A program made the position numbers and the translations under genes. The notes beneath the pieces were generated by a model, which did not search any database, was not told the DNA's origin, and saw nothing but the letters and a program-made list of their open reading frames with translations. This document shows positions 5,286 through 62,800 of a stretch of DNA of 64,000 nucleotides, in pieces. Positions within the stretch are counted from its first letter, which is position 1. Every line of letters begins with the position of its first letter. Origin of the DNA: Prorocentrum cordatum (taxonomy: Eukaryota); contig CAUYUJ010000240.1 of assembly GCA_963575745.1 (NCBI GenBank), positions 1 to 64,000 on the forward strand, in the 5' to 3' direction.

Positions 5286-5317
<32 letters not shown>

Positions 5318-5763: not shown

Positions 5764-5799
<36 letters not shown>

Positions 5800-7546: not shown

Positions 7547-7580
<34 letters not shown>

Positions 7581-27297: not shown

Positions 27298-27755
27298 AAC
27301 CCGATTCCTAGGTAATCTGTGAGGGGGTCCTAAATGTGAGCGCGACTGGGTGCCTGGGTGTCGGGGGCGCGGCGATTGAGTAAATTTCAAGAAATTACAG
27401 CGCAAAGGCGCTATTCGTCGGTAAAATGCAAGCAAGTCTCGAACGCAAGCGCGACTCCAGAGCGCCGGGAAAACGATTCCTTACTACGTTGCAAGGAAGT
27501 CCCCAGCGAGAGCGCAATTTCTGCATAACATGCGAGGAGGTCTCGGGCGGGAGCGGGGGTCCTGGCTAAATTGTGAGGAAATCTTAAGCGGGGGCCGTTG
27601 TATTTGTGACCCGTGGGCCAAGGGCTCGGTTTGAGCATCCAGACTTTCCTTGTCAAAAAACAGGGCGCGAGCGTCGAATGGCACACTTTGATGGAGAAAT
27701 ACAATATGCACCGGTGGGGGGATCAAACATAATTGTTCTTCAGAAATGAAAACTC

Positions 27756-31099: not shown

Positions 31100-31132
<33 letters not shown>

Positions 31133-39121: not shown

Positions 39122-39266
39122 CCTCCTCCTCATGCTCCTGCTCCTGCTCCTCCTCCTCCTCCTCCTCCTCCTCCCTCTTTTTCCTCCTCCTCCTCCTCCT
39201 CCTCCTCCTCCCCTTTCCTCCTCCTCCCCCTCCTCCCCCTCCTCCTCCTACCAGCCCCCCTCGTCC
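39122..39266. repeat. (CCT)n microsatellite, insertion site of the giant LTR element; continues at 62322-62350
   Basis: Seen directly. Confidence 0.85.
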
Positions 39267-39608
39267 AGTCTTTCCTCTGAGAATCGGGGTAAGATGACAA
39301 AGGGATTAAGATCTCATGTTCACTCTGCTCAGGGAGAGCGGAGGCAGGATTATACATTGATAAGACAGATATCCGTTCAGCTAAACCACTCTATCAGGAA
39401 TAGGAAGGGGGGAGGAAGGCCGAGGACGGACGACGACGAATCGCCCGCGCGCCCCAGCGCGCTCCTTTTCTCTCCTGCCAGCCGAGGTCGGCTGGTTTGA
39501 GCAGTTATACAGTTGCAGAAACGCAGCATCAGTTCACGCGGACAGTTCATTGCATGCAATCTAAGTTGTGTTCTAATTGAGTATGAGGCGGAGAGGAGCA
39601 TATTTACT
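39267..39608 (-). repeat. 3' LTR (AGT...ACT termini)
   Basis: Direct repeat of 61980-62321; contains the hairpin CCAGCCGA-GG-TCGGCTGG. Confidence 0.95.
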
Positions 39609-39618
39609 CCCCCCGCGG
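39609..39618 (-). promoter_or_regulatory. Short polypurine tract (G6) before the 3' LTR
   Basis: Minus strand ...CCGCGGGGGG|AGT. Confidence 0.55.
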
Positions 39619-40026: not shown

Positions 40027-42674
40027 TTATTTCCAACCTGTGCCGCCTCTCGGCGGGAAATGATGATTATGCCCCCGCTTTGACAGCCAGGTCCAGTAAG
40101 GTAAATTGCACCATTCATCGTTATTAAGCCACGTGATCCTGTTCCGATGGAGGTGATATCCAACAAGGATTCCATTCACGTGGGTCGGGTAGGACTGGTC
40201 AGGGTCGAATGTGGAGCCGTGTCCTGCGGCGCCGCTGGCAGCATCCGAGGCAGCGCCTGCGGCGGCGCCCGCCGCCGCGGGCAGCGCAAGGCCGGCGGCG
40301 TCATCGGCGGCCGCGGCAGAAGCATCATCTATGGCTGCATGGCGCGCGCGTCGCAAATCCGACCGATCCCTCGTGTTGGGATCTTGTAGGTTAGCGTCTC
40401 CGGTCGGCACGGCTGAGCCGGCGACAGAACGTGGGGAACCAGTAGCCTACTCAGACGCCTGAGCATCTGAGATGCCAGGTCGAAGAGACGGCGTGCGAGA
40501 CAAAGGTCTTGCCTTTGGTCCAGCAGGCACACGTGGCCCCACGATCTCGGCTTCGCCGTCGTGCTCAGGGCCATTATCCCTACCGTTCATAAATTGCAGT
40601 ATACTTCTGGCAGCAGTTGCTGCAGTGACACCATATAGTCCGCATGAAGTGCGGAAAGGGCCATCTTCCTTGTCCTGAAGAACGGTGCTGGGGTCAGGAT
40701 ACTTATCCTGTAGCCAAGTTATGGCTTCTTGTATTATAGCACCGTGGTGACGGACGTCATTCTGTACTGTCCTGCCCATCTTGTGGGCCCATGTTTCTAT
40801 AATGTCGTCTGTCTCAACAGCCGCGCGAATTCGGCAGTCCAAGGCATATGCGTCGGTTCGTTTCTTTGATTCAATTTCATCCGTGCTCATCATTTCGGGA
40901 CGAATGATTCGCCCCGGGTACCAATAAAGTGGTCCTCCGATATGAAATAGCTGATTATCTCATGAATAATTGCGAAAATCCTTATGGGTCGAAGGCCCAG
41001 TTCCATATTTTGTGATGTTACTAACCAATTGTCATCCACTATTTTCTTGATGATCGCCGGGATCGCATAGTCTGCCGTTCCAGTCAGGGTAACCCTGCAG
41101 GGTGTAGTAGGGCTTATTCCCGTGTGTTCAATTATGCAATGAGCGGCAACCTCTCGAACCTCGTCCCCGAACAATCTTATTTTAATCAGACGGTCCTCAT
41201 GCTGAAAGTACACGTGTCCCTCAGGTTCGTCAAATGCGAGGAGTCCGTCAGTTATCGACGCGGCCTTCGGCCCGCTGATTACTTTGAGGTCCAAATCCAT
41301 TTGTGTCTGTTCCCGTGCCCTCGCGGCTGAGCCGGAGGCATGTCGCAGCGCGGGAATTATAAGACGATGGTCCCGACACATGCCGACCCGTCTTGCAACG
41401 GAGTGAGAACTGCGAGTCGGTCGCGCTCTAAAATTGTTCTCCCAGGCGACCAGTAACCTCGCAGGAGGGTTGTCGTTGTTGGCGTTGTTTCCAGTATCTT
41501 CAGGAAATACGCCGAACCATGACATGTCAAACTGCATGGCATCATCTACTGTGGCAAGTGTAGGAACAAAGAGGTTTGCTCTCCTCATTTTGTTGAACCA
41601 TTGTGCCCAGCCAGTCCTAGGTGTGATCAAGTCATCTGGTTCATCAGGCCAGTGACATGCTTGTAGTGCCGGGCAGGATCTGGGGCGGGCGTACTGATCA
41701 AAACCAGTCGCCCACAATTTTGGCCACCATTTGTTAATGGGCGGGGTTCGCCTGTGTACATTTGTGGCCGAGTGTTCTTGCCACGATATAAATCTCTTGA
41801 CCAGAGGCCTTGAGTATTCAAAGAAAGGAGCATGTCGCGCCGGAGGCTGAGCCTCGGCGTTCTCTGGGATCCAAGCTGGAAAGTTTCCCTGCTGACTGTT
41901 GCCAAATATTGTGCCAGCAGCCGCCATTGTGGCAAAGCTGGTTTCCCATTGTCGCTCCTGCTGATTGTTGTTGGCGACGTTTTTCGCAACGTTAGCAGAA
42001 GCTCTCCCTTGTCTCCTTATCCGCGCCTCCATGTATACACGACGATCCCATGACAGAGATCCTTCGTCCTCCACAATTATCCAAATACCATGTGCCTCAA
42101 GGGATTGCGGGATAGTTTTGTACTTCCATGTCTGGGTGATGTAATCATGTGAGATCCTATATTTATATCGGATTGGGCAATTACAGACGGGACAATTGGC
42201 AAAACCCGTCCTCACCCAGTGGTAACGGAAGCAAAGGAATCTCCCATCGTCATCCCACGGGGTAGATAGAATTCGATCTTGAATCGAGCTATCCAATCTT
42301 GGTTCGTGTTCCCAATTAATAATCAGTCTCTCGTCTGTATTAACCCAGGCAATAATCGACGCGTTGTCGAAGATGACCTCGTGCGAAGATAATTCGCGGT
42401 CAAAGAGTACCGTCCAGCGCATCTGATTCATCTGCCTCACGAGCGAGACGGCTTTGTCGATGTCTGTGAATCTCGGTACCTCCCGGGGCACCAATGTCCC
42501 GTCTGGGCATACTCTGTACGAGAAGCGGGTGAGTACTCTGCCGGTGAAAACAAGGATCATATCCCATTGTTCATGATGCTTGAGGTTGGGGAGACATGGC
42601 CAGAGGTGGCGTATGTCTTCCACGTTCAAGGTGCCCACCTTTGGCGGCTTCCCATCCCGAGCCTGGTTGCCCAT
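40027..42674 (-). CDS. Distal cargo ORFs (40890-42674, 40447-40893, 40027-40410); CxxC ribbon, otherwise unknown
   Basis: Abutting co-oriented ORFs up to ~400 nt from the PPT; CPVCNCP motif. Confidence 0.55.
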
Positions 42675-43300
42675 AGATGCTACGGTTTTTATGGTGGGCG
42701 CTTGTCCATATCTCCTTTGGCTTAGCCACGGAGGAAAATCCGAGGGTTAGACATAGTTGGGCAGTTGTGTGCCGGAAGCAAACGCAATGAATCGTAACCT
42801 ACGGCATGACACAGCCCAGAATTGCCCTTTGGAAAGCAAACATTTCCACTCGTAGACTCCAAAAATGCCTGTAGGCTCGTAATCTGTAGAAGAGATCCGC
42901 GACTCCTGACTTGGCCAGGGCCGCACGGGACATACATTCTTTCAATCGAAGCGGTAAACGTTGAATGCCCCTGACATGCCCTATAGAATATCGATATGGG
43001 CATTTCTCTTCCATTGATCTCTTGTAGAGATCTTTTATTGTGTTTGTCCCACAGAGCGTGGATTAGTGTTCCAGCAATATTGGGGCTGTCTTTGGGGGAA
43101 ATCCCCAGAACATCGGTCGTCCCTGCCGGCAACGCAGCTAAGCTGTGCGCAGCCAAGGCGTACCATTGGAAAGTAAAACCGTCATCATATAACTCCTGCA
43201 CCAGGTCCCCAAAATAGACCCAGCCTCCTGACGATCTAGCATAATCCGAACAGTGCCTCGCGATGTATACAGCACATTGGCCTATTATTTATTTTGGCCA
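42440..43300 (-). pseudogene. Tpt1/KptA (NAD-dependent RNA 2'-phosphotransferase)-like domain, split by frameshifts
   Basis: Manual translation upstream of ORF 42722-43201 gives VYIARH...GGWVYFGDLV, followed by HNKRSLQ and the signature YRACQGHS. The C-lobe-like DMILVF...YRVCPDGTLV...IDKAV lies at the start of ORF 40890-42674. Confidence 0.7.
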
Positions 43301-44458
43301 AATCATCCGCTCGGAAACTCAGGCCGCTCCAGGTGCCCGAACTGCCTAAGACAGCCGGGTTTTCACCGTCATCTTCTCCAACTAAAAGTGGCCGCAAGCA
43401 CGAATAGGCGCCTGGAGAAAATCCATCAGGACAATCATCGGACTGAAATTCGGCTCTCATATAATCCCTTGCATACGCGAAAGATCCGTCGTCTTGATTG
43501 AGACCTGCCAATATAGCAAATATTGGATCTTCCACAAATTCTGCCATGTATCTAAGCGTAATTCCCGATTGTTTACGGATGGCTTCGACGTTAGGTGGTA
43601 CAGGGCCCGTAATATGGGCGTCCTGGAGCATCTGCTTTAGAGGCCCAGGCGTAGCCTGAAGTATGCGATGGCGTTCGTCTGTTGTCGCATACAATCGTTT
43701 CTCCTTAAATTCAGCAGCATGCCCCACCGTTACATCTCGGTCCCCATCGTAAGGGTCCCTATACTGCGGCCGTCCCTGCCTTTTATCTGGAGTAGGCGGA
43801 AGGCGCAATCTTCGGAACATATTCGTAGACGCCGGTCCATGTGGAAGAGCTTCATCATCCATTGACTCCAGAAATTGAGGATCTTTCTCGCGCGGATACT
43901 TTGAGCAAGAGTCCTCCGATTCTGCGTCCATTTCTTGTACTTCCGGGTGGCCTGAGGCCCCCGGTGGCGACGGGGCTCGGCCTTTAGGAACGTGTTTTGT
44001 CCCATCATCGTTAATATGTGATGCTCCCTCGTCCGACGGCACTTGCGTCGGACTCTCGATTGCTCATCTTGCGCATCACGGCGGCTCTCTCGTTCCGCTC
44101 CGGCTGAGCCGGGCGGAAGGGCAAGAGGAGTAGGCACTCTGACCATGCTCCCAGAACCTTCTGCCTTTTTACGTCGTGACCATCGAGGTCCGTCCGCTAT
44201 CATCGGAGTGCGCACAAAATTGCTGTCCACCTTCAAAATTTTTTTTCGACGATAGCATTTGCAAAATCATTCCACGCGGGGGAGTGTGTGTTTAGCTGCT
44301 CCAGCTCATCTGGTATACTTATATCGTAAATGGTTTCGCTGCCTTGATGTACGATGCAGCAGCAACTCTGAACCTTTTCATCAGAGCAGTGTTGTCCCGG
44401 GCGTCATCTGCTCTCGATTGTAGCCCTCGCAAGTGGTGAAAGAAGTCTTTTCCATTTC

Positions 44459-46177
44459 TCAGCGCTGAACTGGATTTTGGGCATTCAAAATACAAGCACG
44501 AGACATATTAATTGTCATTATGATGGTAGTAAAATCATCATCTCCTTCCAAGTCAGGTGAATGCAGAGATGAATGGCCCCCGTCCGACTGAGCCGTGGGG
44601 CTAACGTCGCGCATGTTCGGTACATCGTCGTTTCCATCTCTTTCAGGAACACCAGCATCGTCAGAGGCCGCCTTCGCCTCTGTAGGTGTAGCATGCGCAG
44701 ACCGGGATCGTTCACCCGCGGGACCGCCATCGCCACGAGGCGGGTCGTCCCGGCGCCTGGTCCAACTGGGTGCCTGCTTGGAAGGTGCTTGCTTAGAGCG
44801 AAGCTCATTTGTCTGAGGACTCCGAGTAACAGACGAGGAGCCAGAAACGTTGGCCCCGGCGAATAAATTTAATTCTGACGGAAGATCAGCAACGCTCGGC
44901 CTCCAAGGTCTGCTACCAACTGCATCTGAGCCACTCGACTTAGCCGGTGGCTGGGCAGTCATAGAAGTATCGGGATCTCCATCATACCGAGGCATCTTCG
45001 CTGGCGGTTGACCTAAGTTCTCCGGCCTGGGATCGGTCCTCGGGGGGGGAGCCTTCTCGGTTGAAACCTCTTTCGCAGGTGGAGCACGCGTCTGCTTAGT
45101 AACATTCGGCCGCTGTTCCGGAGGACTCGATGGAATGCGAATCGCTGGCGGAGCCTTCTCGGCAGGAATCTCTTTCGGTCCACCAGGAGGAGGAGGAACA
45201 GGGGGCCGACTAGCAGCCCTCGGGGGCGGTGCCTTGTAGGCCCTCTCGGGCTTCGCAGGCGCCCTTCCAAGATCAGGGAAGTCCTTTTTATCAATTGAAA
45301 ACGGAATGCCGGGCGGCTTAGCCGCCGGCAGCACCTTTTCGCCCCCCTCAGCTGCCCTCTCTTTCTCCTTTGCAATCTGCTCGACCAACTGAACTGATCT
45401 ATCCGAGGCCTCGCCCCTCTGTATGGGGTGAATCTTGGTCAGCCTGACTCCTTTGTCTTGGAGCCACGGCCAAATATCATCATATTTTTCTTCGTATGTT
45501 TCGCCTGCTCCCCTCAAATCGGGGCGCGCCCCCTTCTGCCATTCGAAGGAAGTCAAGCCAGGGACCCGAGCCTTTCGAGCATCGCGGACTTTGTCCGTGC
45601 GCTGGGTCCGTTCCGGGGCTCGGCGCCTTTCAAACTCAAAGTCCACCTCCAGGTTCCATCCTTTATCTCTGGCAATATGCAGCAAATGCGCCCATCCTTG
45701 AGTAAGCCACGCGGCTGCTGCAGTCCAACGATAGAGCCTCAACTCGTATAAAGTGTCAGTCTCTGGATTGCTCACGTATTGAGTCGGTGATCCTCTATTG
45801 GATTTGGTCGTCTTGGCATAGTAAACAATCTCGGCCGTGACCCAAATGCCGTCTCCAAAGGTCTCCTCCACAATGGAGTAGGTGGTGCGAGTGCTGGGAT
45901 TGTCAGTACATGGGAACGAGTACACCCCAACCGCATGTGTCTTCACGCTTCCGCCGTATCGAGGATTTGACGGAAGCAATTGATGTCCCTCCAAAATAGC
46001 ATGACATGTTGACACTGACGTGCCATGCGACTGCTTTGTCCAGCTGGTGGATGGGTCTGAGACCTCCGCAAGCTTATCTTTTGTCAGGAAGAAAGGCAGC
46101 GCTAATTCGACGCAATGGGCTTTGCCCACGTTGTGGGATGTCAACCTCAAATCTGCCCAATTAAAGCGATCGGCCAC
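44459..46177 (-). CDS. Cargo ORF with N-terminal PARP-like (H-Y-x) ADP-ribosyltransferase domain and Pro-rich tail
   Basis: WTKQSHGT...AILEGHQLLPS...GVYSFP...TTYS...QYVSNP (nt ~45720-46050). Confidence 0.6.
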   Translation of the reverse strand: MADRFNWADLRLTSHNVGKAHCVELALPFFLTKDKLAEVSDPSTSWTKQSHGTSVSTCHAILEGHQLLPSNPRYGGSVKTHAVGVYSFPCTDNPSTRTTYSIVEETFGDGIWVTAEIVYYAKTTKSNRGSPTQYVSNPETDTLYELRLYRWTAAAAWLTQGWAHLLHIARDKGWNLEVDFEFERRRAPERTQRTDKVRDARKARVPGLTSFEWQKGARPDLRGAGETYEEKYDDIWPWLQDKGVRLTKIHPIQRGEASDRSVQLVEQIAKEKERAAEGGEKVLPAAKPPGIPFSIDKKDFPDLGRAPAKPERAYKAPPPRAASRPPVPPPPGGPKEIPAEKAPPAIRIPSSPPEQRPNVTKQTRAPPAKEVSTEKAPPPRTDPRPENLGQPPAKMPRYDGDPDTSMTAQPPAKSSGSDAVGSRPWRPSVADLPSELNLFAGANVSGSSSVTRSPQTNELRSKQAPSKQAPSWTRRRDDPPRGDGGPAGERSRSAHATPTEAKAASDDAGVPERDGNDDVPNMRDVSPTAQSDGGHSSLHSPDLEGDDDFTTIIMTINMSRACILNAQNPVQR

Positions 46178-47360
46178 GGAGGCATTCAGCGTTCGTATCG
46201 ACCTGTCCGCTTTGACCCTGAAGAAGCGAGCTCAGTTCGGCACTAGATAGTTCTTGGTCATCGGTGGAAATCTCGTCGTTGGCTGGAGCATCTGGTAGGC
46301 AAGCCACACTGGGCTGCTCGCATCTTTTAGAATCGTTTTCCGTTCCGAGCTGTGAGGTGGATCTCTTCCCTCGGCGACCTCAGCAGCTCGCCCCTCTTCG
46401 CCTGGGTATACATTGGACGGCATCATGCCCCGGTGAAGTTTGTCGCTGGCGACCGTTAATGGGCAGAGCACATTACGACGAGCGACCTCATCCGTCTTTG
46501 CATCTTTTTTTCTGCAGATTCTTTATCTGCTGATACTCCATATGGATCGGCCACAAACATTCTTCCTCTCCAGGGCATCCTTCTTTCGCCCCCCTTGGAA
46601 ACTTGCTCTTTTGCTACACTAATCAAAGACAACCTACCCTCGGGGCAGTTCTCCCGAATGGTCCGTCAGCTGTTTCCCCAGGGGGTTCGATATCCTTGAT
46701 ATTGGTCGCAGGAGCCAACGGAGGGGTGCGCGGCGACTGAGCCGTCATTGCGCTAGAACCAGAGCCCGTTCCGGCTGGGCCGACGGGTTTGGCCTTGTCA
46801 GTTGCGGCAACAATGCCGGGCTGGCCGGTCAAAACTTTAGTATATACAGGGGCCGCAGTGTCACCTGGCGCTGCACTGCTCGCCGCAACGGCTCAGCCGC
46901 TCGGTATCGCCGTTGGCGATGCTTTGTTGAGTTCCTTGAGTACGGCACGCATTGGCTCATCATCCTGGACTCCCTCGGTCGCTGGTCTCTGGGTCTCCCC
47001 CCTCGGTGGCATTCCAGGACGGAAGACTTCTCCTCGGGGCAAAAAGTAAGCATCATCTTTCCGTAGGAAGAAGTCCTCATAGACACCTCCCCTTTTAAGG
47101 AAGCCTTTAGATTCATTTGAATGGAGCGAGTATCTAGCACTGCCTCCAGTTCCGTTCGAAACGACAGGGAAGCGTTCGTCGGTCAGTCTTTCCTTGAATG
47201 GGAGCGCGCCAAGTATCGACCTTGGAATGCTACCTTCTGTGGGGGACCAGTCCTGCCAATGCATGATAAGATCTTGGACGTTCGCCTCCTGTTGGGCGTA
47301 CTAGTCCTCCCTCACCAGACAGGTTATGCGGCCTTCCCCGACGGCTGAGCCGCAGGCAGG

Positions 47361-48392
47361 CTAACAGAAAAACAGCACAGCCAGTTTGGCCAGTTTAATC
47401 ATGTATTCGACACACAATTCCGCGGCAAGGACCTTTCGGGATTTTCCCCCGTCAAACACTTGATAGTCATCATGGGAAGCACAGAAATGGAAAGCATCCT
47501 CATTGCGGTGCCTAAGCTGGCGGCATAGGCTGACACCGTCGAGGATCATTACTCTGGGGAACAATCCTATCGTTTTAAAGTGTTCAATCCGACGGTTCAT
47601 TCTGGCTCGGACCATAGTGGCAACATCGCCCCACATCGGGCCGACGCCGTCCTCACCTATTTGCCAAAACGTCGAGTCCCCGCCGACGTACATTATGTCA
47701 GTAATCCCCTGTTGGGACCGTTTCATTATGTCGTCGATCAAATCCACGGCGTCCTTTATCATCTCCCTGATGCTCCCTGCGAAAGTAAACGGGTTGTCAG
47801 TTCTTTTGACTCCACTGCCTACTCCGTTCAATTTGCCCGATTGGTCAACAATGTCGTTGAGATTCCAGAAAGTGAAGCGAATTGGGGTGTGGGTCCCTTC
47901 ATTATAATACCATTGTTTGCCCCACTGAAAGTTCGCGGAGTCGGCGGCAATACCGTTGAGTGGTGCTCCACTCTTGGCCGACTGTGCGCTTCCAAATGCC
48001 GGATTTCGCAGGTGATATTCAGGCATAAGGCTCGGCTTAGGCGCCCCTGGTGCGTCCTTGAACGCAATTGTGGAGTCAGACACGATATGTACGGAACATG
48101 ACCAACTACGATAAGTCCCATTCTTCATCTGGGTCAGAGGCCGGAAGAAGTCCGTCACAGATTTCCCCGTGGACGACATAGTGGCGAGGTCTTCTCCGGT
48201 GAATGGAATCCACGAGTGACCATGAACCTCGGCGATCTTTGTAATCGCCTGACATTTCTCGGCAAAATCCATGTTACCTGACCAGAATCTCAATTTTGGG
48301 TCCGTGACTTCCATATAAAGGTCCAGGATTTCGCCCACTATTACTCGCCATCCATCCCGGGGGGGCGGAACACGCCCAAAGCCCCCTTTCAC
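47361..48392 (-). CDS. Cargo ORF with SGNH/GDSL-hydrolase-like domain
   Basis: VHIVSDS (block I), AKSGA (II), WNLND (III) and DAFHF (V), in the correct order and with plausible spacing. Confidence 0.6.
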   Translation of the reverse strand: MKGGFGRVPPPRDGWRVIVGEILDLYMEVTDPKLRFWSGNMDFAEKCQAITKIAEVHGHSWIPFTGEDLATMSSTGKSVTDFFRPLTQMKNGTYRSWSCSVHIVSDSTIAFKDAPGAPKPSLMPEYHLRNPAFGSAQSAKSGAPLNGIAADSANFQWGKQWYYNEGTHTPIRFTFWNLNDIVDQSGKLNGVGSGVKRTDNPFTFAGSIREMIKDAVDLIDDIMKRSQQGITDIMYVGGDSTFWQIGEDGVGPMWGDVATMVRARMNRRIEHFKTIGLFPRVMILDGVSLCRQLRHRNEDAFHFCASHDDYQVFDGGKSRKVLAAELCVEYMIKLAKLAVLFFC

Positions 48393-49888
48393 GCGAAGGT
48401 ACTCAAGGACGTTCCACGGGCCGCGACCGATGTGAGGTTTGTCTTCGGGCTCGGGTTCTGACGCTGCGGGCCCCGAGTCCGGCGGTCCACCTCCCCCTCC
48501 CCCCCCTGTAAGGGGGGGTCGTCTCGTGAGGGGAACCCGCCAGATGGTGGTTGATCCCCATCATCGCCGGATGAGCCGTGAGGGGGAGCGCCACCATTGC
48601 CTCCGCTGGCTAAGCCAGGAGGATTCTCAATGTTGGGAGGTTGGCCGGCAGGTGCCCCGCCGGCCGCCTGTTCCCCAGTCCCATGGTCATCCAATGATGG
48701 CTGATATTGGCCCTCGACTGCTGATTGGCATTCCTCGGCGATCACGTCGTCGGGCGCCTCCGTTGCAGTCTTCGGCTTCTTTTGCGGCGAGTCCTCATCA
48801 GCATCCGGGCTGAGTCCGTCTTCGGCAAGCCATTTCTCACAATTCTGTGGCCTCTTCCAGGGGCGTTGTCTTTTCCTCCAGTGCACTGCCTGCTTGGGCG
48901 CGTCCTCGAAGTACGCCGCCTTTGCGGCGGCAGTAAGGGCTTCCTCGACCACGCGCACGGGTGCACTGTATTTTCCTTTGACCACTGGAAAAGCGAACAT
49001 CGTTCCCCACCCTTCCCCAACGGCTGAGCCGCGGGGAGGCTTTCGAGGGGAAGGCCTCCAAATATCAATCCAGACCTTCTGGGAGCTTTTTTCCCGGTGG
49101 TCCGCCACTGGCACACTCGCATAACTGCCCCAGTGGGTCTCATGCCGAACGGCTGGGCCGACAGTGGGGCCAAACACTTCTCCCGGCTCTAGCGTCCGCA
49201 TTATACCACGAAAGCTCTCTTCGGGGCTTTCCGTGTACACCCTACTGATCAGCTTCGTCTTTTCATCAGGGTACGTTTGGAGGAACGTTCCCACGGGGAT
49301 TTTGGCAACGTCAGGAGGGGCACAATCGAAACGGCAAGTGTCCTTCCGCTCAAACATAGTCCAATGTACGGTCCACGGGTCTTGGGAAATCTGGGAGTAG
49401 AAACGCTGGAATATCGTCTGAGACGTTGTTTCCAGGTCCGCCCTCAATGCAGTCACGACGGCGTCATTTCTCGTGTAAAGTATGTCGTTCTTCCACATCG
49501 TGTAGCGCCAACCCCGGCCCTTTGACGGCGCCAATGACATGGTTCCGTCTTTGGGTCCCGCACGGGACCACTCCCTCAGTTTATCAGGGAGGCACTTGAA
49601 GACTTCTTTATTTCTCCATGGTTCGACGTCTTCTACATTGGGATCAATCACTTTCTTTGAGCGAGCATTGTTTTGAGGGGCAGTTTCCATGTCAGCATCA
49701 TTTTCAAATATAATGTCATTTGGGCTGAACTGTTCATGCCCTGTCCGATCCGGCTGAGCCGGTGGGCAAGCCATCCCGCTCGGCTGAGCCGGCGTTGCGG
49801 CTTTCCGAATTGTGGCGAGGACAGCATTATTGTAATCCTTTTCCTCTCTGCCCTTGTCAACAACAACGTCCGAATCAATTTCATCCAC
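48389..49888 (-). CDS. Cargo ORF, unknown function (499 aa; aromatic-rich core with disordered tail)
   Basis: Long co-oriented ORF inside the LTR element; overlaps the next ORF by 4 nt. Confidence 0.6.
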   Translation of the reverse strand: MDEIDSDVVVDKGREEKDYNNAVLATIRKAATPAQPSGMACPPAQPDRTGHEQFSPNDIIFENDADMETAPQNNARSKKVIDPNVEDVEPWRNKEVFKCLPDKLREWSRAGPKDGTMSLAPSKGRGWRYTMWKNDILYTRNDAVVTALRADLETTSQTIFQRFYSQISQDPWTVHWTMFERKDTCRFDCAPPDVAKIPVGTFLQTYPDEKTKLISRVYTESPEESFRGIMRTLEPGEVFGPTVGPAVRHETHWGSYASVPVADHREKSSQKVWIDIWRPSPRKPPRGSAVGEGWGTMFAFPVVKGKYSAPVRVVEEALTAAAKAAYFEDAPKQAVHWRKRQRPWKRPQNCEKWLAEDGLSPDADEDSPQKKPKTATEAPDDVIAEECQSAVEGQYQPSLDDHGTGEQAAGGAPAGQPPNIENPPGLASGGNGGAPPHGSSGDDGDQPPSGGFPSRDDPPLQGGEGEVDRRTRGPQRQNPSPKTNLTSVAARGTSLSTFA

Positions 49889-49947
49889 GATGTCGTCAGA
49901 ATGGATTGAGATCGCGTCATCACCCAGTGGTCCGTCCGCCTACTTCT

Positions 49948-51679: not shown

Positions 51680-53640
51680 GACCCATGCCATTGGGTCAAC
51701 GAATCGTTTTGTTCCAGTATCTGCAGCCTCGTTTTGCGTTCTTTCTGATTGTAATTGAACAAGGCCACGAGACAATTGTTCGGACACAGCTGCTGCATCG
51801 ATTCATTACGTTCTTGGTAGGTGCATCAGCTTCATTGACCCGCCTGCCTTGATGACTTTGCAAACTGCTTGGTTATCTCCCAAGAATAAACATCGCGCAG
51901 ATCTATCCAGCAGGATCTCCCACAGCGGTAATGCCGCAAGCAGCTCCTTGCGCAACGCAAGGTCGGCCGCAACGATCTCGGCCTCAAGTGTACTATGAGA
52001 TGCGCATGTTTGTCTTTGCGAACTCATCGACTGTCCTGCCCGTGTATATGGACCCCATATTGCTTGGTAGCTAGCGCTCGTGCTCCTGTGCGTTCGGGTG
52101 TCACTCGCCAGATCTGCATCAGAGTATTGTTTTAACAGGGCGCCCTCCTTTTCTATCACCCACCCACGAGGTCATACGATAATGAGATGTACATTTTATG
52201 TAACATATGAGGCGGAAGGTCCATGTCCTGTTGTTCTGTCCATTTTGTGATGCAACTGGCAGTTTGACACACGGCACGGAGTAAGTCGTATCTTGCCATC
52301 CTAGCCCCGTAAAGTATGTTCATCAACACTTTTGCTGCAATTGGCTGAAGCACTCCCGACTGAGTCGGTGGCCCAGGGTCATCAGGGCTAGCTGCTGCGG
52401 CATCGAGGCCAATCACCTCTATTTCTTGATCAGGAGGGCTGGTGTCAACGTTGATCTGTAACGCTGATGCTATAGCCTCCTCAGCTGGGGAGTAAATCTC
52501 TCCTCTGGGGCCGCCCTGCCCGTCTTCTAAGTCAGTAAGTTCTGGACCGAACGGGGTACCCGCGGCCGGATATGCGGCCGGGTCTGCGTCCGTCAATTGA
52601 GCGTATAAGGTAACGCAGGAATCGAACAACTCTGTCATATCGTATTCGATGACTTTTACTAGTTTCGGTTCTATCGGCTGGTATGGCTCGGTCATCTGAG
52701 ATGCCGAGTCCCCCCCCCGTTTCCTCCTCACTACTCTCGTCTGTGACGGAGGCGTTTTTCTTAACTATTGGAGGAGGCGGGTCGAGTACCGTAGGTAACT
52801 CTCCGTGCCACTCAATTGTCTGAGTTGATAATCTATGCTCGCATCCTAAATATCGTCCAACAGCTGTTGGAGGATATATTTCTATGCCCCTAGGGCAATT
52901 GTTCGAAGGCTCTTGAAGTAAATTCCATCCCTGGGCCAGCTTGTCGGCAGGTCCTGACAATGCGAAATCATCGACACAACTGAACAAGAAAATTTGCAAT
53001 TCTTTGTTGAAGTAACAGCTTCGCCACGGACTACATTTCACAAAACCTTTCGCCGTGACATGTCCCTCGCAATGCTGTTCCCAGTGCCCGCCCAAAATCG
53101 GGATGTCCGTGCAGAGATAAGTACACAGGACATACGGGGTTTCTCATATTGGACCATGCTTTGGGCCATTCGTCACGAGGCAAGAAAACCCAAGTAGGAG
53201 TGCCTCCCAACTTTGGCTGCGTGTAAGCTTGCCGAGCGTCAGCTTGTTCGATGTTATGGCCTTCAAACAGCCCGTCAGTATCGGCTGCTTTGCTGGCCTG
53301 CATTGTCGCGGGATTGCTGGGAAGTTCCTGAAATAGTGCCACATCTTTGTTTTGATCTCTAACACTCGAACCGTCAAAGACCACCCGACCTTTGTGCTTG
53401 CGGTCTTTGTGTCCCAGTGGTAACTCTGAGTTCTTTTCAACAAAGATCGCAAATAAACGGCCAAAATGAGCCGTCTTCCCTGTGAGTTCGGCAACAATTC
53501 CCTAACACCATCTTCGATCCACGTGACAATGTCGCGCAGTCTGCCCCATTCTTTTCTCAGGGCAGCTTGAGCGTCTTTGTTTGCCTTTGCCTCGTCTTTT
53601 GAGACAGATCTGGCGACAGCGGCATCCATGCGATTGCATT
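51680..53640 (-). pseudogene. Copia-type reverse transcriptase plus RNase H
   Basis: RT motifs KGRVVFDG, QADARQAYTQ, LSLHGHPD, SCVDDF (YVDD-like), RYLGCEH, LYGARMARYDL. RNase H motifs YSDADLA...RSTS, SHSTLEAEIVA, GDNQA, AADTGTK. Confidence 0.92.
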
Positions 53641-54999
53641 GCCAGTCGTTGGGAAGTTGGAAAGGCTCATCGATGACAGATATTACATCTGTAAATGGAT
53701 TATAGAAGTATTGCAATTCAAACCTTTCTTTGTCACGATGATTGATATTTGTGTCTGAGCTGTCTCGTAACGGCATTCGAGGAACGCTTCGCCGCGACGC
53801 GGCGGCCGCCGGACTCGGGGTCAGGCTTGCCTCGTCGTTGTCCTCAGATTTTCCGTTATCATCATCGGACAAGAGATCCCTGTCGGCTGAGCCGGAGGGT
53901 AGCCCGTCTCTTGCTATAGTGCCTCCATACCATGTTTGTTTCCACCAGATGTCTTCGTCATCTGACAGGTGTCCGTCAGGAGCGTCTTCTTCTGAATCGT
54001 CAGTTTGAGATGTGGTTTGATAGACCTGGGTGTGTCGCGACGCCGCCCCTCGCCCACTGCCAGGGGTGTAGCACAGGCTGTCGCTTTGTATTCGACGTAG
54101 CTGCCCAGCCACCTTAGGTGCAGTTAGCCTGGCTTCGGGGAGAGCCGCAAGCGGCTGAGCCACTGCGGGATCGGGCGGAGTCGGTGGGTCATCCACATCT
54201 AGACCAATATCACGCAGAAGGCCTAGGCAAGGACTGGGATCCTCTATACCGAAGATCCCTCTCTTTTCAGCCTTGTATTGTTCTACGGCCTGTCGGCGCT
54301 GCGCTTGCGGCATGTTAAACCATCGTCCAGGGCGTATCCCGGGATTGGTAGAATCGGGTAGCTTCTTTAACCATTGGGCACTGCATTTTGGGCCCGGGTC
54401 TGTGACCCACAATCGGGTTATAGGTGCATAATCAGGGTCATAATAAGGAACAACTCGTATGCTGCATGTCTTTCGACGACCTGTCAACGGGAAATTCTGA
54501 ATTAATTCGCCTTTTGTAAGTCCAGCAACAATCCGTCTGTCTTCGAAATATTCCATTGTATCGAAATTTTGAATTGTTCGGGCAAGAAGCTGCCCTTTCC
54601 CTGGGACTTTCTCACTCGGCTTAGCCGCTGAGAAGTTGGACTGTCTGTCCAAACGCAGGATGGGAGTCGCGCCGAGGGTCCCCGCCGTCAACTACCAAAG
54701 GCACATCACCCACATACAAACCCCCAGGACCGTCGTCATCAAGATCGGCCTCGGATTCAATACGTGGTGCGTCCTCGCCTTCCTGGGAAGGCGGTGGCAC
54801 CGGAATGGCAGGATCATCAGCATTAAACATGTTGTCCGGTCTTATCCCTGTGGCTGGTTGCGGTCCGTCTGAGACGGCCGCACCTTCTCCTGTTTCTGTA
54901 GGGATTGTGGCGGAACGTACCTCCGTCGCCGCTTTCTCGTATGCTTGTCGCAAGGGAAACTGAGGCGATTGGTCGTCAGCAGTACCATCTAAGATGTTG

Positions 55000-57570
55000 C
55001 TGTACACTTGGTCAGACTTCTCGATCGTGGGTTGTTTTCCCTCTGGAGTGCGTCCTGACTCCATATTCAGTCCGTCCAATTGTCTCAGAGGTATTACGTA
55101 ACTGTCAGGTCCAACCAATCCCCCCGCTTTGTGCACATACCCCAAGTATATCCCTGTAATCATCGTTGCTCCAGTCTTGGCAGTGCGGAAGCGGGATTCA
55201 GGCGGAGGCACATAACGGATCAGTGATCCGAAGGGAAGAAGCGGAGCATTGAATTGGCATCCGAAGCGCCTTTCCCAGCTGGGCTGCCCTTCAGCAGGGG
55301 TCCTTGCATTGTAGCATCAGCAGAAATATCGAACTGCATAGGTCCAACATGGCGGTGGAAGACCAGCCTGCATGAGTAAGGCTCTAGCACCCATCTGCAC
55401 CGCGCCGTTCGCGCGCTCGGCGACAGCATTTTGTTTCTTGTTTCCTGGGGTGGTAGGATCATGGGCAATATTGAGCTCGCAACATGCCCTAGCGAGCTCT
55501 CTTGCACCATCTGTATAACAATATTCTAACTTTTTCCTCCGGGGCTCTAAGGTTTACTAAGAAGTTACAAACATGAACCGCAGACTTGTCGTGTACACCC
55601 TGAGCGGCAAGAACATCTGTAGCTCGGTCGCGAAAAGTCACACACGCGGTCTCATCGTGGAGTCCCCGCGAGAGTTCATCCATCGCAAACCAATGATCCA
55701 TCGTCGTCAGTTGCCCGAACGAAGTGGGGTTAGCGTATGGGCGAGGAACCTTTAGCCCTTTGTTCTGCGCTTTGCGCTGTTGTTTTCTGATAGCTTTGGC
55801 CCAATTGCACACTGGGCAATGGTTCTTAGGAGTATGAGTTAGAAGGTGCGGTAGGGAGGCTGCAGCCTTTTTGAGCCGCTCGGCAAGGGTCTCCGACACC
55901 TCAACTTCCGCAACGTCTGGGTCTAAATCTGGCGGTGCGTCGACGTCGACCAAGTCGACACCGTCAGCGTCTCCAGCTTCACCCTCCTTGGGTCCTGGGG
56001 CCGCGTTGCGCGCATCGGAGTCCAGTCCTCCACTTGCTTCGTGCGGGAGGTATCCTGAAACTCCACATCCAAAATGGCATCTATATGCGGCAGCACAAGC
56101 CTCGGCTTTGCCGGGCTGCTCGTCGAATGGACCGACGGCTTGACCGTGGTCGGGCAAAGCTGAGAGACTATTGGAGGCAGCAGTACCGGTTGGCGTCCGA
56201 TTCCAACCGCATTCGCTGGCCAACTGAAGCGAATAGTAGAAGTAGGTGATGGTATCCGCAGAGTCTATCGAAGACGGGAAAACGGGCGCGATCTCGGTCG
56301 GCCGCCCATCAGCGTAGCGGCGGGTACCAATCAGCTCATGCGTGTGCAGGTCTATGGTTGCGCGAGTCTGGACAGCGTGGGGCGGAGGGCCTCCCGCAGA
56401 TTCCACGTTGTCCAGGAATGCCTTGGCGCCCGGCGTCACGCAGCGCCACCGCTCGAGGGGCTCGCTCCTTCCGGCGGCAGCTGCGCACATCCACTGACCC
56501 AGCGCCTCTTTGCCTGATAGGGTAAAGTATGGTATCTTGCCCTCAAGGGCTAGGTCCACTCTTTGGCCGTTGGGCAACAGTTGGCAGGGCCTTTGGCCAG
56601 CTGGCCAAAAGAAACTAAAGCCGTGATCCATGCACCGCTCTCCTACCGAGATCACGCACGGGGTCTCCGGCATGACTAAAGCGTTAAAACTACCACCCTT
56701 AAATTTGGGACACGCGATGCGAACTGAACCGAGGGCCTTAGACTCCCCCCCGGCAGTGTTCAGAGTGATCGATTGCGGCAGCTTTCGCATCAATGTCATT
56801 GCACCGGCGCTCCTACTGTATTTTTCCGCATTTAGGTTGTACCCGCACCCGGTATCTATAATGAAGCTCAATGCCCCCAGATACGCAGCGTCTTTGTCTG
56901 TGCATCCAGCAGCGGCTGAGCCGCGCGGGCTTTCTTTCCCCTCTTCGTCTTTCAACCAGAGATGCCAGACGTGATCTTGCAGGTCTGATGCTCTGATCAA
57001 AGCCTCTGCGACAGACGCCCTCGACTGTATCGACATCTGTCGGCGCATCCCCCCTGGGAACTTCCATCTGTCTTTGCTACTTGAAGACAACTCTTTCAAG
57101 TCGTGGCGACGGGCCTTTCTCCAAGTGATAGTCGGCTCCTCAGTAGAGGGGTGAAAACGGACACGGAGATTGCATCGGTTGCTATCCCGATGTCGCATGC
57201 AACTCTTACTAGGGGGAACGCACCAGTACTTTTTGATCGCGTCCCGAGAAAGAGGGTGCAGGAAATTCGCAAGGACATTGACGAGTCTCTCGACCTCTTC
57301 CCTGCCGTCCTGTTGAAACTCACCTTTGGAGGTATCCCAATAGTCTCCTCCGTCGGCACTAGAGGCAATAGCCAAAACATTAAGGCCGTTTTGTTTTTGC
57401 CCTGGGAAGCCCCGGAATAATGGGGCGGGGCACGCGACGGCACCCAAGCTGATTGAATCAGTGGGTCTCTTCCAGCCCCCCCGTTTTCTACTCAACCGAC
57501 GCATGCTTCGCCACGTCTGCCGAACGAGGACGACAAGAAAGAAGACCATTAACAAAATTATGTCTGTCAT
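55000..57570 (-). pseudogene. Aspartic protease plus integrase
   Basis: Protease FIIDTGCG, LNTAGG, TPCVISVGERC. IN zinc finger HLLTH...HCPVC, then TMDH and RDRAT. After a frameshift: YTDGAREL...QNAVAERANG...AGLPPPCWTYA. Confidence 0.9.
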
Positions 57571-57612
57571 CCCTCCAGCAATGACGGCTGAGCCGCCAGT
57601 GCGGAGCCATTG

Positions 57613-59593
57613 TCACGTAACTGGATGACCTGGGGTGGTCTTGGCGAACCAGCATTCTCTCCCGCGTGAGCACTTTCCCGTTTCTCTGTAGGAGCGACAG
57701 ACCATGTCTTTGCCTTTGCCACCGCCTTTGTTTTTCCCTCCATCATTTTTGCGTTTGTCGGAATCAGCGCTAGCGGCTCTGGAGCCACCATTACTTCCCG
57801 TCGAAGAGATATTGGCAGCAGCAGCAGCATTGGCCTGTTTGGATGTACGCTCATATCCCAAAGATTGTCAAGCGTCAAGTTTCGCTTGTTCCCACTTGTC
57901 ACGCTTCAGCTTCTCAGCATCGGTTAGCCTTCTATGGGCCTTGTGACATCCGTCTTCGGATCCTCGACAATTCGTGGGGTCTCGGGAGTATGCGTAACGC
58001 GGAATATTACTGTCTTTCCCACGTGACTGACTTCTATTATTTTGCTGTCCTCCTTTCCCTCGGTTTCCAGTCGGGGTCTGGGATCGGCCCTGCCCCTTTC
58101 GGCCCCTGTCCTTCGATCTACCTCTAAGGTTCTTATCCTGGGCAGGGGCGGCGCTGGTCTTCCGTCCCGCACTCGGCTGAGCCGGTGCGGCGTTCTTGGG
58201 CTTCTTGTGATTGAAGGGACAGCCTTTTCCTGCGCGCGGGCAAGTTTCGCCCTTGGTAACGTATCTGCAAGTGGTTTCGCCCTTGGTTTTCGCCCCTTTC
58301 ATGACATCCGAGGATTGTCCCAACTTAGTGGCAATCTCTGCCGGGGCGGCTTTATTGCCTGCATTCCTCCGATTGTCATTGCCTCCGCCTCCGCCGAATC
58401 GTGCTTGTCTGGCACGTTGGTCTAAGGTTTCCTCATGCACGCAGATGTTCCAGTCTTCTTTTTCTCGCAACATCACTCCTTCAATCTGCTCCATCAGCCA
58501 TTCGTGAGTTTTGACACCTTGTCCCGTTCTGTCTTTCGACAAGTCATATAACTTACATACAAAATCCAGTTTGTTCGGCTTTCTGCATTGTTCAAGGAAG
58601 TACATGAATCGAGGCCCTCATCTCGTCGGACGGAGGCTTGGCGCCATAAAGCTGTTGATACACGTATGTCCATTCATTGTAGAAATGATACAGGTCAGCA
58701 TCAGGCTCGTGCGGGTCTATCTTCACTTTGAAGAGGTCGCGCGAAATGCGATGTTGTCCCAACTCCGACCTTACCTAACACCAGTGACAAATAGCCCGCA
58801 CCATCTCGCGTCCAGTCATGAGCCTTCCCTCGGCCTGGGCGCTGAATTCCACGCGAGTAACCTGTTGAAGGAAATGGGTATGATGAGGAGGCTGATATCG
58901 ACTCTTTCGCATCTTGTTGAACTTCTCGATAAGATTCGCTGCGATCATAAGGCCGAGACGCTGGAATCGTCCAACATATTTGAGTTGCTCATCCTCCACG
59001 GCTGGATCCATAGCCTCGGCAATCCAGTGCTGTGCTGCCTGGCTCTCGGGCGATGACCCAGCGATGGCGCGTATTGCGTGCATTTTCCACTCGCGAATGT
59101 TCGTAATGTCAGGGATGTCCAACAAATCAATTTTCTGTTTGTTACCGACCTGTCTCCACTGATCTAACGGCGTGCTCTCGTCAATTACTACCGAGTCGCG
59201 CGGTCCGCCGGGGCCTTGAGGCCCCCTGCGTCCACCCCCACCATCAGAGGGGTCTGACCCCCCTGGACTTCCCGGAGGCGATCCTCGTGGTCCTCTGCCA
59301 CGATCATCTTCGTGCGAAGATGCGATCTCGGTGTTGGGAGCGTCGCTCTTGTCGTCATCTTCTCCGCCCTGTCCTGCATTGCCCGACGACTTAGTCGCCG
59401 TCGTTCCATTAGGGCCGTCTCCATAGGTTGTGCGGAGATTGGCAAGAGCGTTATGTTCGTTAGGTCCAGTTAGCCTCATCCCTGCAGGGAGTCCACTTTC
59501 AGCGGTGCTCGGCTTAGCCAGACCTTCAATGGCAGGTCCTGGGACAGAATGTTGATGCAACAACGGCCCCACGGGGTTCTCTTGCGAAAACAA
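57613..59593 (-). pseudogene. Gag-like region with CCCH-type zinc fingers
   Basis: Helical core IREWKMHAIRAIAGSS...GREMVRAICHW; CRYVTKGETCPRAGKGCPFNH; CRSYRETGKCSRGRECWF. Split by stops and frameshifts. Confidence 0.7.
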
Positions 59594-61959: not shown

Positions 61960-61979
61960 GCGCGTTTCGGCTGATAACC
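61960..61979 (-). promoter_or_regulatory. Primer-binding site of the half-tRNA type
   Basis: GGTTATCAGCCGAAACGCGC abuts the 5' LTR. Its complement reads TTCGG-CT GAT AA-CC, a tRNA anticodon arm ending at AACC, as in the Drosophila copia PBS GGTTATGGGCCCAG. Confidence 0.65.
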
Positions 61980-62321
61980 AGTCTTTCCTCGGAGAATCGG
62001 GGTAAGATGAAAAAGGAATTAAGATCTCATGTTGACTCTGCTCAGGGAGAGCGGAGGCAGGATGAGACATTGATAAGACAGATATCCGTTAAGCTAAACC
62101 ACTCTATCAGGAATAGGAAGGGAGGAGGAATGCCGAGGACGGACGACGACGAATCGCCCGTGCGCCCCAGCGCGCTCCTTTTCTCTCCTGCCAGCCGAGG
62201 TCGGCTGGTTTGAGCAGTTATACAGCTGCAGAAACGCAGCATCAGTTCACGCGGACAGTTCATTGCATGCAATCTAAGTTATGTTCTAATTGAGTATGAG
62301 GCGGAGAGGAGCATATTTACT
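61980..62321 (-). repeat. 5' LTR (AGT...ACT termini)
   Basis: Direct repeat of 39267-39608. Confidence 0.95.
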
Positions 62322-62800
62322 CGTCCTCCTCCTCCGCTGCCGCCTCCTCCCGCTTCATTCACATTTTCCGCGTCCTCCTTTGCCGATGGAGACCGCCGCG
62401 CCCGTTGACCTGCCGCGCCCCTGCTGCGAGTTCGAGGCTACGTCGTCGAACGAGCTCCATAGACGTTGTACCACTCATCTTGATGAGGCTTCCATCAACG
62501 TCCCCGGCTGAGGATGTGCAAGGCTCTCTGAATCTTCTTACATTCATCCCCATCTTCATCATCAATATGACATCGACACCACCGACGCCACTGGTACGAC
62601 GCCGACGACGCCGGCACCACCGTTACCACACCGAAGCCGTCAGAACAACCCCGCCTCCATTACGACGCCGACGCCGCCGGCGCCGCCATTACGAGACCGA
62701 CGCCGCCGTTGCGACGCCGCCGCCGTTACGACACCGACGCTGCCGTTACGACGATCTGGGAATTTCCTGAAGGGTCGCGATCATGACATCGTCTCTGCAG

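What the first reader, a model, noticed from the sequence alone, without database searches (positions are those of the whole stretch)
45720..46050. PARP-like ADP-ribosyltransferase domain in an LTR element
Seen: W-x4-HGT, IL-x-G-x2-LLPS, GVYSFP and a downstream Tyr, matching the H-Y pattern of diphtheria-toxin/PARP-type ARTs; Q appears where the catalytic E is expected. Inference: a mono-ART or NAD-binding effector, and a second NAD-using module next to Tpt1, reminiscent of conflict systems.
Basis: partly seen in the sequence, partly recalled or inferred. Interest (0 to 1): 0.72.

Follow-up and report, generated by a model that had tools for sequence, protein, structure and literature searches.

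The report
Possible ADP-ribosyltransferase domain in giant retrotransposon
A dead copy of a very large, high-copy jumping gene carries a conserved, enzyme-like accessory domain whose key motifs resemble NAD-using ADP-ribosyltransferases, but no statistical or structural test could confirm that identity.

Summary
The motifs are real. They lie in a 590-codon stop-to-stop frame (44459-46231, minus strand) and are conserved in a small orphan family: H69 15/19, Y104 18/20, E134 18/18, E122/E123 17/17, Q151 12/12.

The frame sits in a 23,058-bp element bounded by 345-bp LTRs of 96.5% identity. By eye the element has the protease-integrase-RT order of Ty1/copia.

The window copy is dead. Its TGA at 46232-46234 is private: all 12 public DNA contigs covering that place, and seven related proteins, read Trp. 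The element is highly repeated (1120 contigs on 3 kb).

The ADP-ribosyltransferase reading is neither confirmed nor refuted.
- For: motif order and spacing, protein-language-model neighbours labelled PARP, and weak profile alignments that anchor on the H-G-T motif.
- Against or silent: no Pfam or PDB sequence match, two poor AlphaFold models, all structural Z below 4, and a shuffle test without signal.

Invariant glutamates exist, so "Q replaces E" is unnecessary. The neighbouring "Tpt1" has weak profile support only (P about 6e-4). I put the ADP-ribosyltransferase fold at about 0.4.

The parts
61978..62322 (-). 5' LTR of the element (the element reads on the minus strand)
   Evidence: 345-bp direct repeat, 96.5% identical to 39265-39609
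39265..39609 (-). 3' LTR
   Evidence: It is preceded on the minus strand by a G-run (...CGCGGGGG), which is polypurine-tract-like by eye.
61963..61980 (-). Primer-binding-site-like TGG/TTATCAGCC at the LTR-internal junction
   Evidence: Sequence. The likeness to the tRNA-iMet PBS of copia elements is recalled, not tested.
57616..58617 (-). gag-like region with CCCH zinc knuckles
   Evidence: Pfam zf-CCCH E 6e-4 (20.1 bits, just under the cut-off of 20.5) in frame 57616-57867. Torus E 0.0038 in 57868-58617.
54624..57612 (-). Protease-like (IIDTGCGYNL, 56833-56862) and integrase-like motifs (H-x4-H...C-x2-C at 55795-55848; D/D region at 55615-55707; RRFGCQF at 55251-55271)
   Evidence: Read by eye. 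No Pfam, PHROGs or PDB sequence hit.
52535..54691 (-). Reverse-transcriptase-like frames (FSCVDDFAL at 52958-52984)
   Evidence: Read by eye. No Pfam or PDB hit.
44459..47264 (-). Accessory gene holding the finding: N-terminal part, conserved domain and Pro-rich tail. It is broken in this copy.
   Evidence: P0009, P0028 and P0030 align across the frames. Frame changes lie between 46522 and 46896.
46232..46234 (-). Private in-frame TGA in place of a conserved Trp
   Evidence: 'PNWARFF' or similar with W in P0003, P0004, P0018, P0020, P0031, P0033 and P0034; P0030 reads R there. At 46232, T>C in 12 of 12 contigs of run X1, giving TGG.
45557..46231 (-). Conserved 225-aa domain (the query used throughout)
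46019..46042 (-). W-x4-H-G-T motif (H69 at 46025-46027)
   Evidence: W64 16/16, H69 15/19, G70 17/18, T71 15/18
45911..45928 (-). G-V-Y-S-F-P motif (Y104 at 45920-45922)
   Evidence: G102 21/21, Y104 18/20, S105 17/20
45818..45868 (-). EETF-x-D and AE[IV][IV][FY] motifs (E122/E123 at 45863-45868; E134 at 45830-45832)
   Evidence: E122 17/17, E123 17/17, D127 17/19, E134 18/18
45779..45781 (-).
   Evidence: 12/12
40893..44063 (-). Downstream accessory gene with Tpt1-like motifs (ARH...GGWV at 43199-43261; YRACQGHS at 42962-42985; LLH-x-T in relatives, Q in this copy at 42875-42895)
   Evidence: Family A6. P0047, P0044 and P0045 bridge the three frames. hhalign to a Tpt1 profile gives P 6e-4 to 1e-3. 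No Pfam hit.

Best explanation
Shown or well supported:
- The region encodes the conserved core of an accessory gene of a giant (23-kb), high-copy LTR retrotransposon. By eye the element has Ty1/copia order: gag, protease, integrase, RT, then about 12 kb of extra genes.
- This copy is dead.

Inferred, my best guess:
- The domain is an enzyme with a very divergent ADP-ribosyltransferase (PARP/Tpt1/DarT-type, H-Y-E clade) fold.
- H69-G-T plus the following helix (ILEG) and the G-V-Y104-S strand would hold NAD+.
- An invariant Glu would activate it: E134 in 'AEIVY', or else E122/E123. ADP-ribose would then go onto a protein or a nucleic-acid end.
- Together with the Tpt1-like gene next door it may act on the element's own RNA or cDNA, or on host factors that restrain it.
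- The fold, NAD use and the target are all inferred.
For: Element: LTRs; one-strand frames and copia-order motifs read by eye.

High copy number and decay:
- 1120 contigs of run X1 lie on 44400-47400 (72 at >=99%, 229 at 95-99%, 400 at 90-95%, 419 below 90%).
- The TGA and five further private changes revert to the family consensus in those contigs (C76L, V121A, N145I, T160V, R168H).

Enzyme-like conservation of polar residues down to about 33% identity in the ENA members P0009, P0011 and P0027.

ADP-ribosyltransferase leads:
- H-G-T, +10 I-L, and G-x-Y 35 residues after the His. This is the same order and nearly the same spacing as in PARP catalytic domains (PARP spacing recalled, not from a call).
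- ESM Atlas feature search: 16 of 30 neighbours at >=0.90 are PF00644 PARP clusters. The distant member P0011 gets one DarT/PARP-labelled cluster among 30.
- hhalign places H69-G-T plus helix on the catalytic H-x-T plus helix of a Tpt1 profile (P 0.075 and 0.12), a DarT profile (P 0.14) and a 154-aa bacterial protein that passes Pfam PARP (P 0.1). Six reversed controls gave 0.3-0.8.
- 12 of the 50 best VIA rows for model 1 are PARP catalytic or pseudo-PARP domains (Z 2.5-3.2).

Against: - No Pfam hit at E<=10 for the domain or for any of 32 members.
- No NCBIfam, PHROGs or PADLOC hit.
- No PDB sequence hit to any ADP-ribosyltransferase by phmmer or by two profiles.
- AlphaFold left the motif region unfolded in both models.
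- Foldseek against PDB and BFVD gave nothing at E<=0.001.
- All VIA Z are below 4, under the tool's own noise level. GntR/UTRA-type domains score as well or better in both models (Z 3.0-3.8). Model 2 shows no PARP row in its top 50.
- All hhalign P values are non-significant. Against single KptA the alignment fell on a different HG site.
- The family HMM against 26 real ADP-ribosyltransferase sequences, each with 500 shuffles, ranked only 3 at <=1/500. Seven of the 26 real sequences were not reported at all by hmmsearch, and the PARP-like one ranked 127/500.
- The stretch between the second Tyr and E134 is far shorter than in PARPs (recalled).
Confidence: 0.4

Rival explanations
1. The domain is a lineage-restricted enzyme or ligand-binding domain of a fold unrelated to ADP-ribosyltransferases. 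The H-G-T / G-V-Y resemblance is convergent or coincidental.
For: Every statistical test for ADP-ribosyltransferase kinship was negative or non-significant. AlphaFold did not fold it as a PARP. The most repeatable weak structural neighbours in both models are GntR/UTRA (chorismate-lyase-like) domains, at Z 3.0-3.8. The invariant EETF-x-D and G147/Q151 motifs have no counterpart that I know in PARPs.
Against: The language-model neighbours are mostly PARP-labelled. Three independent ADP-ribosyltransferase profiles or sequences all anchor on the same H-G-T site. The UTRA matches are as weak as the PARP ones.
Confidence: 0.42
2. The domain is a non-catalytic structural or nucleic-acid-binding part of an accessory protein (for example a particle, movement or silencing-suppressor protein). 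It would be conserved for binding rather than for chemistry.
For: Additional ORFs of LTR retrotransposons are mostly non-enzymatic (titles and abstracts listed, for example PMC7264820). The protein has a long Pro-rich, low-complexity tail. Pseudo-PARP domains such as TASOR are among the weak structural rows.
Against: The invariant residues are mostly polar or charged (H, K, E, E, D, E, Q) and sit in short motifs, as in active sites.
Confidence: 0.15
3. It is not a real gene: a chance open frame in repeat DNA.
For: No ATG start, no RNA run listed, and the copy is broken.
Against: 27 related proteins down to 33% identity have conserved columns, three of them (P0009, P0011, P0027) from other assemblies (ENA). 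Private changes of this copy revert to a protein-level consensus.
Confidence: 0.02

Closest known systems
PARP/ARTD catalytic domain (Pfam PF00644), H-Y-E clade of ADP-ribosyltransferases
   Same: The order H-G-[ST], helix with I-L-x-G, G-x-Y-[FS] strand, second Tyr, then Glu at a strand 'xE[IV][IV][FY]'. The H-to-Y spacing is 35, against about 34 recalled for PARP1. The language-model neighbours carry this label.
   Different: No HMM match. No confident fold. The segment between the second Tyr and the Glu is far shorter (recalled). There are extra invariant EETF-x-D and G-x3-Q motifs. It sits in a retrotransposon accessory gene rather than a host gene.
Tpt1/KptA RNA 2'-phosphotransferase (PF01885) and DarT (PF14487), nucleic-acid ADP-ribosyltransferases
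   Same: Both have an H-x-T plus helix NAD motif, on which the domain's H69-G-T aligns. The neighbouring gene carries ARH, GGWV, RAcQGHS and LLH-x-T motifs in Tpt1 order. Tpt1 can ADP-ribosylate 5'-phosphorylated RNA/DNA ends (abstract of PMC6182162, listed).
   Different: P values are 0.075-0.14 for the domain and 6e-4 to 1e-3 for the neighbour. No Pfam hit. The Arg of the KKRF motif is not kept in the neighbour's family.
LTR retrotransposons with additional ORFs or captured enzyme domains
   Same: There is a conserved extra coding region between pol and the 3' LTR. Examples seen as listing and abstract only: PMC7264820 (additional ORFs in plant elements), PMC5408684 (bdelloid elements), PMC9289625 (m6A demethylase domain in orchid Ty3/Gypsy). 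An earlier scan note reports a Tpt1 domain in another giant copia-type element of this genome.
   Different: Here the extra region is about 12 kb with several long frames. None of them matches Pfam, PHROGs or PADLOC. None of the 12 papers listed contains 'ADP-ribosyltransferase domain' or 'PARP domain'.

Membership tests
PARP/ARTD catalytic domain (PF00644) | Significant match to the family profile | tested here: not met
   0 Pfam families at E<=10 for the 225-aa domain, for the 590-aa frame and for 32 family members. A 154-aa bacterial protein does pass (27.5 bits), which shows that the search can find small PARP-like proteins.
PARP/ARTD catalytic domain (PF00644) | Conserved H-Y-E triad in the right order | tested here: inconclusive
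   H69 15/19, Y104 18/20, E134 18/18. Equating these columns with the PARP triad rests on recalled motifs and on non-significant hhalign anchors.
PARP/ARTD catalytic domain (PF00644) | ADP-ribosyltransferase split beta-sheet fold | tested here: inconclusive
   AlphaFold pLDDT 58.9 and 51.7 with the motif region unfolded. PARP rows reach Z 2.5-3.2 in model 1 only. No PARP row appears in the top 50 for model 2.
PARP/ARTD catalytic domain (PF00644) | NAD+ binding and ADP-ribosyl transfer | not testable with these tools
   Needs protein biochemistry.
Tpt1/KptA (PF01885), for the neighbouring gene 40893-44063 | Match to the family profile | tested here: inconclusive
   Pfam hits 0 of 11 members. 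BLASTP against E. coli KptA gives E 32. hhalign against a 10-sequence Tpt1 profile gives probability 21-28%, P 6e-4 to 1e-3, and aligns GGWV and RAcQGHS. The matching reversed controls gave P 0.38-0.8, but one unrelated reversed control reached 0.023.
Tpt1/KptA (PF01885), for the neighbouring gene | Catalytic Arg-His-Arg-Arg tetrad (recalled definition) | tested here: inconclusive
   'ARH' is kept in 7 of the 8 members that cover it (P0048 reads ARR). The K-R of the KKRF position is not conserved. An H-x-T is kept in relatives but reads Q in this copy.
DarT (PF14487) | Profile similarity | tested here: inconclusive
   hhalign of the family against a 15-sequence DarT profile gives P 0.14, with H69 on the DarT His. 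One DarT/PARP-labelled cluster appears among 30 Atlas neighbours of P0011.
Ty1/copia LTR retrotransposon | Long terminal direct repeats bounding one-strand coding DNA | tested here: met
   345 bp, 96.5% identical; element of 23,058 bp.
Ty1/copia LTR retrotransposon | gag, protease, integrase, RT/RNase H in that order | tested here: inconclusive
   DTG, HHCC, FGC and xVDD motifs are read by eye in that order. No Pfam, PHROGs or PDB sequence hit for these frames.
Ty1/copia LTR retrotransposon | Target-site duplication | tested here: not met
   The five bases outside the LTRs differ (AGGAC against ACGAG on the minus strand). They may have decayed, given 3.5% LTR divergence.

The most novel reading that the evidence does not exclude
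A family of giant copia-like retrotransposons carries its own two-gene NAD+-using module: a minimal PARP-like ADP-ribosyltransferase and a Tpt1-like RNA 2'-phosphotransferase/ADP-ribose capping enzyme. The element would use the module to mark or repair its own RNA or cDNA ends, or to disarm host restriction. That would be a use of ADP-ribosylation by a eukaryotic mobile element that I did not find in print (searches only).
Probability: 0.2. Interest if true: 0.78.

Novelty: new variant of a known kind. Interest (0 to 1): 0.45.

Why it matters
LTR retrotransposons rarely keep extra enzymes. This element family keeps about 12 kb of conserved genes that match nothing known.

If the domain is an ADP-ribosyltransferase and its neighbour a Tpt1 relative, nucleic-acid or protein ADP-ribosylation would become part of a retrotransposon life cycle. 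So far it is known mainly from DNA repair, toxins and bacterial conflict systems. It would also give Tpt1-type enzymes a testable job outside tRNA splicing.

If it is not an ADP-ribosyltransferase, it is still a conserved, enzyme-like orphan domain under selection in a very abundant element.

Tried and rejected
Relatives elsewhere:
- IMG/VR viral contigs, none.
- Prokaryote genomes, none.
- No second copy in the window (tblastn).

Structure:
- Foldseek PDB and BFVD gave nothing at E<=0.001.
- VIA wide searches on both models gave all Z below 4.

Building a PARP profile for hhalign failed for lack of sequences:
- PF00644 was found in 0 of 401 Pseudomonadota and in 1 of 401 Actinomycetota.
- PF18760 was found in 0 of 401 genomes.
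- Nothing was found in the E. coli K-12 record or in the 14 control genomes.

Expression: no RNA holder is listed for 44400-47400. Runs X2 and X3 laid nothing.

Readings considered by eye and dropped because motif spacing or conservation does not fit: 2H phosphoesterase (the second H-x-T is not conserved), GIY-YIG nuclease, macro domain, Nudix box, PD-(D/E)xK nuclease.

Earlier scan notes: no look-alike by sequence for the domain, the RT frame or the Tpt1-like frame, and nothing near this place.

The window's genome is not held, so other copies could not be fetched.

Full report
**Observation.** On the minus strand a stop-to-stop frame runs from 46231 to 44459 (590 codons). It holds WTKQSHGT (46019-46042), ILEGHQLLPS (45968-45997), GVYSFP (45911-45928), a later Tyr, TAEIVYY (45818-45838) and SPTQYVS (45770-45790). 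The frame has no ATG before its residue 413.

**A real, small family.** A HMMER scan of 1.84 billion representative proteins with residues 1-225 of the frame gave 29 hits at E<=1e-3. Two of them (P0025, P0026) are repeat proteins, which I dropped.
- Word-index searches added a few more members.
- Most members are 56-170-aa fragments (P0030 has 277 aa) carrying one EukProt label.
- Three longer ones come from ENA assemblies and are about 33% identical to the window (P0009, P0011, P0027).
- In BLASTP-anchored columns over 38 members the best-kept residues are W64 16/16, H69 15/19, G70 17/18, T71 15/18, S88 19/21, P90 19/21, G93 19/21, G94 20/21, K97 21/22, G102 21/21, Y104 18/20, S105 17/20, P112 19/20, E122 17/17, E123 17/17, T124 17/18, F125 17/18, D127 17/19, A133 17/18, E134 18/18, G147 12/12, Q151 12/12, R165 13/14 and W169 12/14.

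**The window copy is dead and the element is abundant.**
- Relatives read Trp where the window has the TGA that bounds the frame: 'PNWARFF' or similar in P0003, P0004, P0018, P0020, P0031, P0033 and P0034; P0030 reads R.
- On 44400-47400, one public DNA run lays 1120 contigs: 72 at >=99%, 229 at 95-99%, 400 at 90-95% and 419 below 90%.
- At 46232 all 12 covering contigs read C, which gives TGG.
- Five more differences shared by all covering contigs turn window residues into the family's majority residue: C76L, V121A, N145I, T160V, R168H.
- The gene continues upstream to about 47264. The N-terminus of P0009 matches frame 46896-47300, and P0028 and P0030 match 46235-46522. This copy changes frame in between.

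**Context.**
- Direct repeats of 345 bp and 96.5% identity lie at 39265-39609 and 61978-62322, bounding 23,058 bp. All long frames are on the minus strand.
- By eye I read, in order: CCCH knuckles (the one weak Pfam hit: zf-CCCH E 6e-4, 20.1 bits, just under its cut-off of 20.5), a D-T-G protease motif (56833-56862), an H-x4-H...C-x2-C integrase finger (55795-55848) followed by an FGC motif (55251-55271), and an xVDD RT motif (52958-52984).
- That is copia order. However, Pfam, PHROGs, PADLOC and PDB sequence searches find nothing in these frames, so the class is an inference.
- A PBS-like TGG/TTATCAGCC follows the 5' LTR and a G-run precedes the 3' LTR (the likeness is recalled). No target-site duplication is visible.
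- About 12 kb between the RT region and the 3' LTR holds further long frames, including the gene in question. None has a library hit.

**Is it an ADP-ribosyltransferase? Sequence tests.**
- Pfam at E<=10 gives nothing for the domain, the frame or 32 members. NCBIfam gives nothing relevant.
- phmmer and two family profiles against all PDB sequences find no ADP-ribosyltransferase.
- For profile-profile tests I built a Tpt1 profile of 10 sequences and a DarT profile of 15 of 19 fetched loci.
- I also found one small bacterial protein that passes Pfam PARP at 27.5 bits.
- hhalign put H69-G-T and the following helix on the catalytic H-x-T plus helix of Tpt1 (P 0.075; 0.12), of DarT (P 0.14) and of the PARP-like protein (P 0.1).
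- Six reversed-sequence controls gave P 0.3-0.8. The known remote pair DarT against Tpt1 gave only P 0.008. The test therefore has little power, and the results are non-significant.
- Against single KptA the alignment fell on another HG site.
- The family HMM was run against 26 real ADP-ribosyltransferase sequences, each with 500 shuffles. Only 3 ranked at <=1/500, seven were not reported at all, and the PARP-like protein ranked 127/500.

**Structure tests.**
- AlphaFold with 32-33-row alignments gave pLDDT 58.9 (window domain) and 51.7 (P0011).
- In the window model the motif region (residues 76-126) is below 50; in the P0011 model the matching stretches are 76-101 and 104-137.
- Foldseek against PDB and BFVD gave nothing at E<=0.001.
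- VIA against 48,161 chains gave no Z of 4 or more.
- For model 1, 12 of the 50 rows are PARP or pseudo-PARP domains (Z 2.5-3.2) and 15 are GntR/UTRA or chorismate-lyase domains (Z 2.8-3.8).
- For model 2 the UTRA rows recur (Z 3.2-3.8) and no PARP row is listed.
- By the tool's own notes these values are within noise.

**Other leads.** The ESM Atlas feature search places the domain among PARP-labelled clusters: 16 of 30 neighbours at >=0.90, best 0.93, but recognition is below the tool's threshold. P0011 has one DarT/PARP-labelled cluster among its 30 neighbours. From memory, the PARP1 His-to-Tyr spacing (34) and the I-L ten residues after the His match the domain (35 and 10).

**The 'Tpt1' neighbour.**
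- The only QGH[ST] motif in any frame of the window is at 42962-42985.
- It belongs to a conserved gene whose relatives bridge frames 43239-44063, 42725-43288 and 40893-42746.
- The family keeps ARH, GGWV, YRAcQGHS and LLH-x-T, in the order of Tpt1 motifs. The window copy reads Q at the His.
- Pfam PF01885 hits none of 11 members. BLASTP to KptA gives nothing.
- hhalign to the Tpt1 profile gives probability 21-28% and P 6e-4 to 1e-3. The matching reversed controls gave 0.38-0.8, although one unrelated reversed control reached 0.023.
I could not compare the two sequences.

**Verdict.**
- The element context is right.
- The gene is a conserved, enzyme-like accessory gene of a high-copy giant retrotransposon, present here as a dead copy.
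- I rate the ADP-ribosyltransferase fold at about 0.4: plausible from motifs and language-model features, unsupported by any significant statistic.
- A two-gene NAD-using module is a bold but open reading (about 0.2).
- I found no paper joining LTR retrotransposons with an ADP-ribosyltransferase or PARP domain in two full-text searches (listings and abstracts only).

Noticed in passing
window 39265-62322: A 23-kb LTR-bounded element. Its roughly 12 kb between the RT-like region and the 3' LTR holds at least six long minus-strand frames (for example 50786-51802, 49951-50862, 48392-49939, 47364-48560 and 40893-42746). None has a Pfam, PHROGs or PADLOC hit.
   Followed up: partly
window 49951-50862 (minus): The frame holds 'LWGPMPCTGGSPWQ' and 'VVCIEWP'. 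By eye (recalled motifs) these faintly recall the PC and ENV motifs of cytosine-5 DNA methyltransferases. Pfam finds nothing.
   Followed up: no
window 12571-13434 (minus): Pfam RVT_1 reverse transcriptase (E 2.7e-8) in a different retroelement, outside the LTR element.
   Followed up: no
window 5189-5940, 7082-7834, 36324-36621: Long arrays of 9-, 12- and 15-nt periodic repeats shared between distant places. They are probably low-complexity coding repeats.
   Followed up: no
window 26498-27332 and 29426-29740; 30130-33239: 21-nt and about 158-nt repeat arrays duplicated about 2.9 kb apart, and about 1-kb tandem units in an AT-richer stretch (GC 0.47-0.49).
   Followed up: no
proteins P0030-P0052: Family members carry a EukProt label of a prasinophyte green alga, while earlier scan notes call this genome dinoflagellate-like. 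One of the two labels may be wrong.
   Followed up: no
L035:1261-1722: A 154-aa actinobacterial open frame passes Pfam PARP (27.5 bits) and weakly matches ART-PolyVal. It is a very small PARP-family protein. It was the only PF00644 match in 401 Actinomycetota genomes, and 401 Pseudomonadota genomes gave none.
   Followed up: partly
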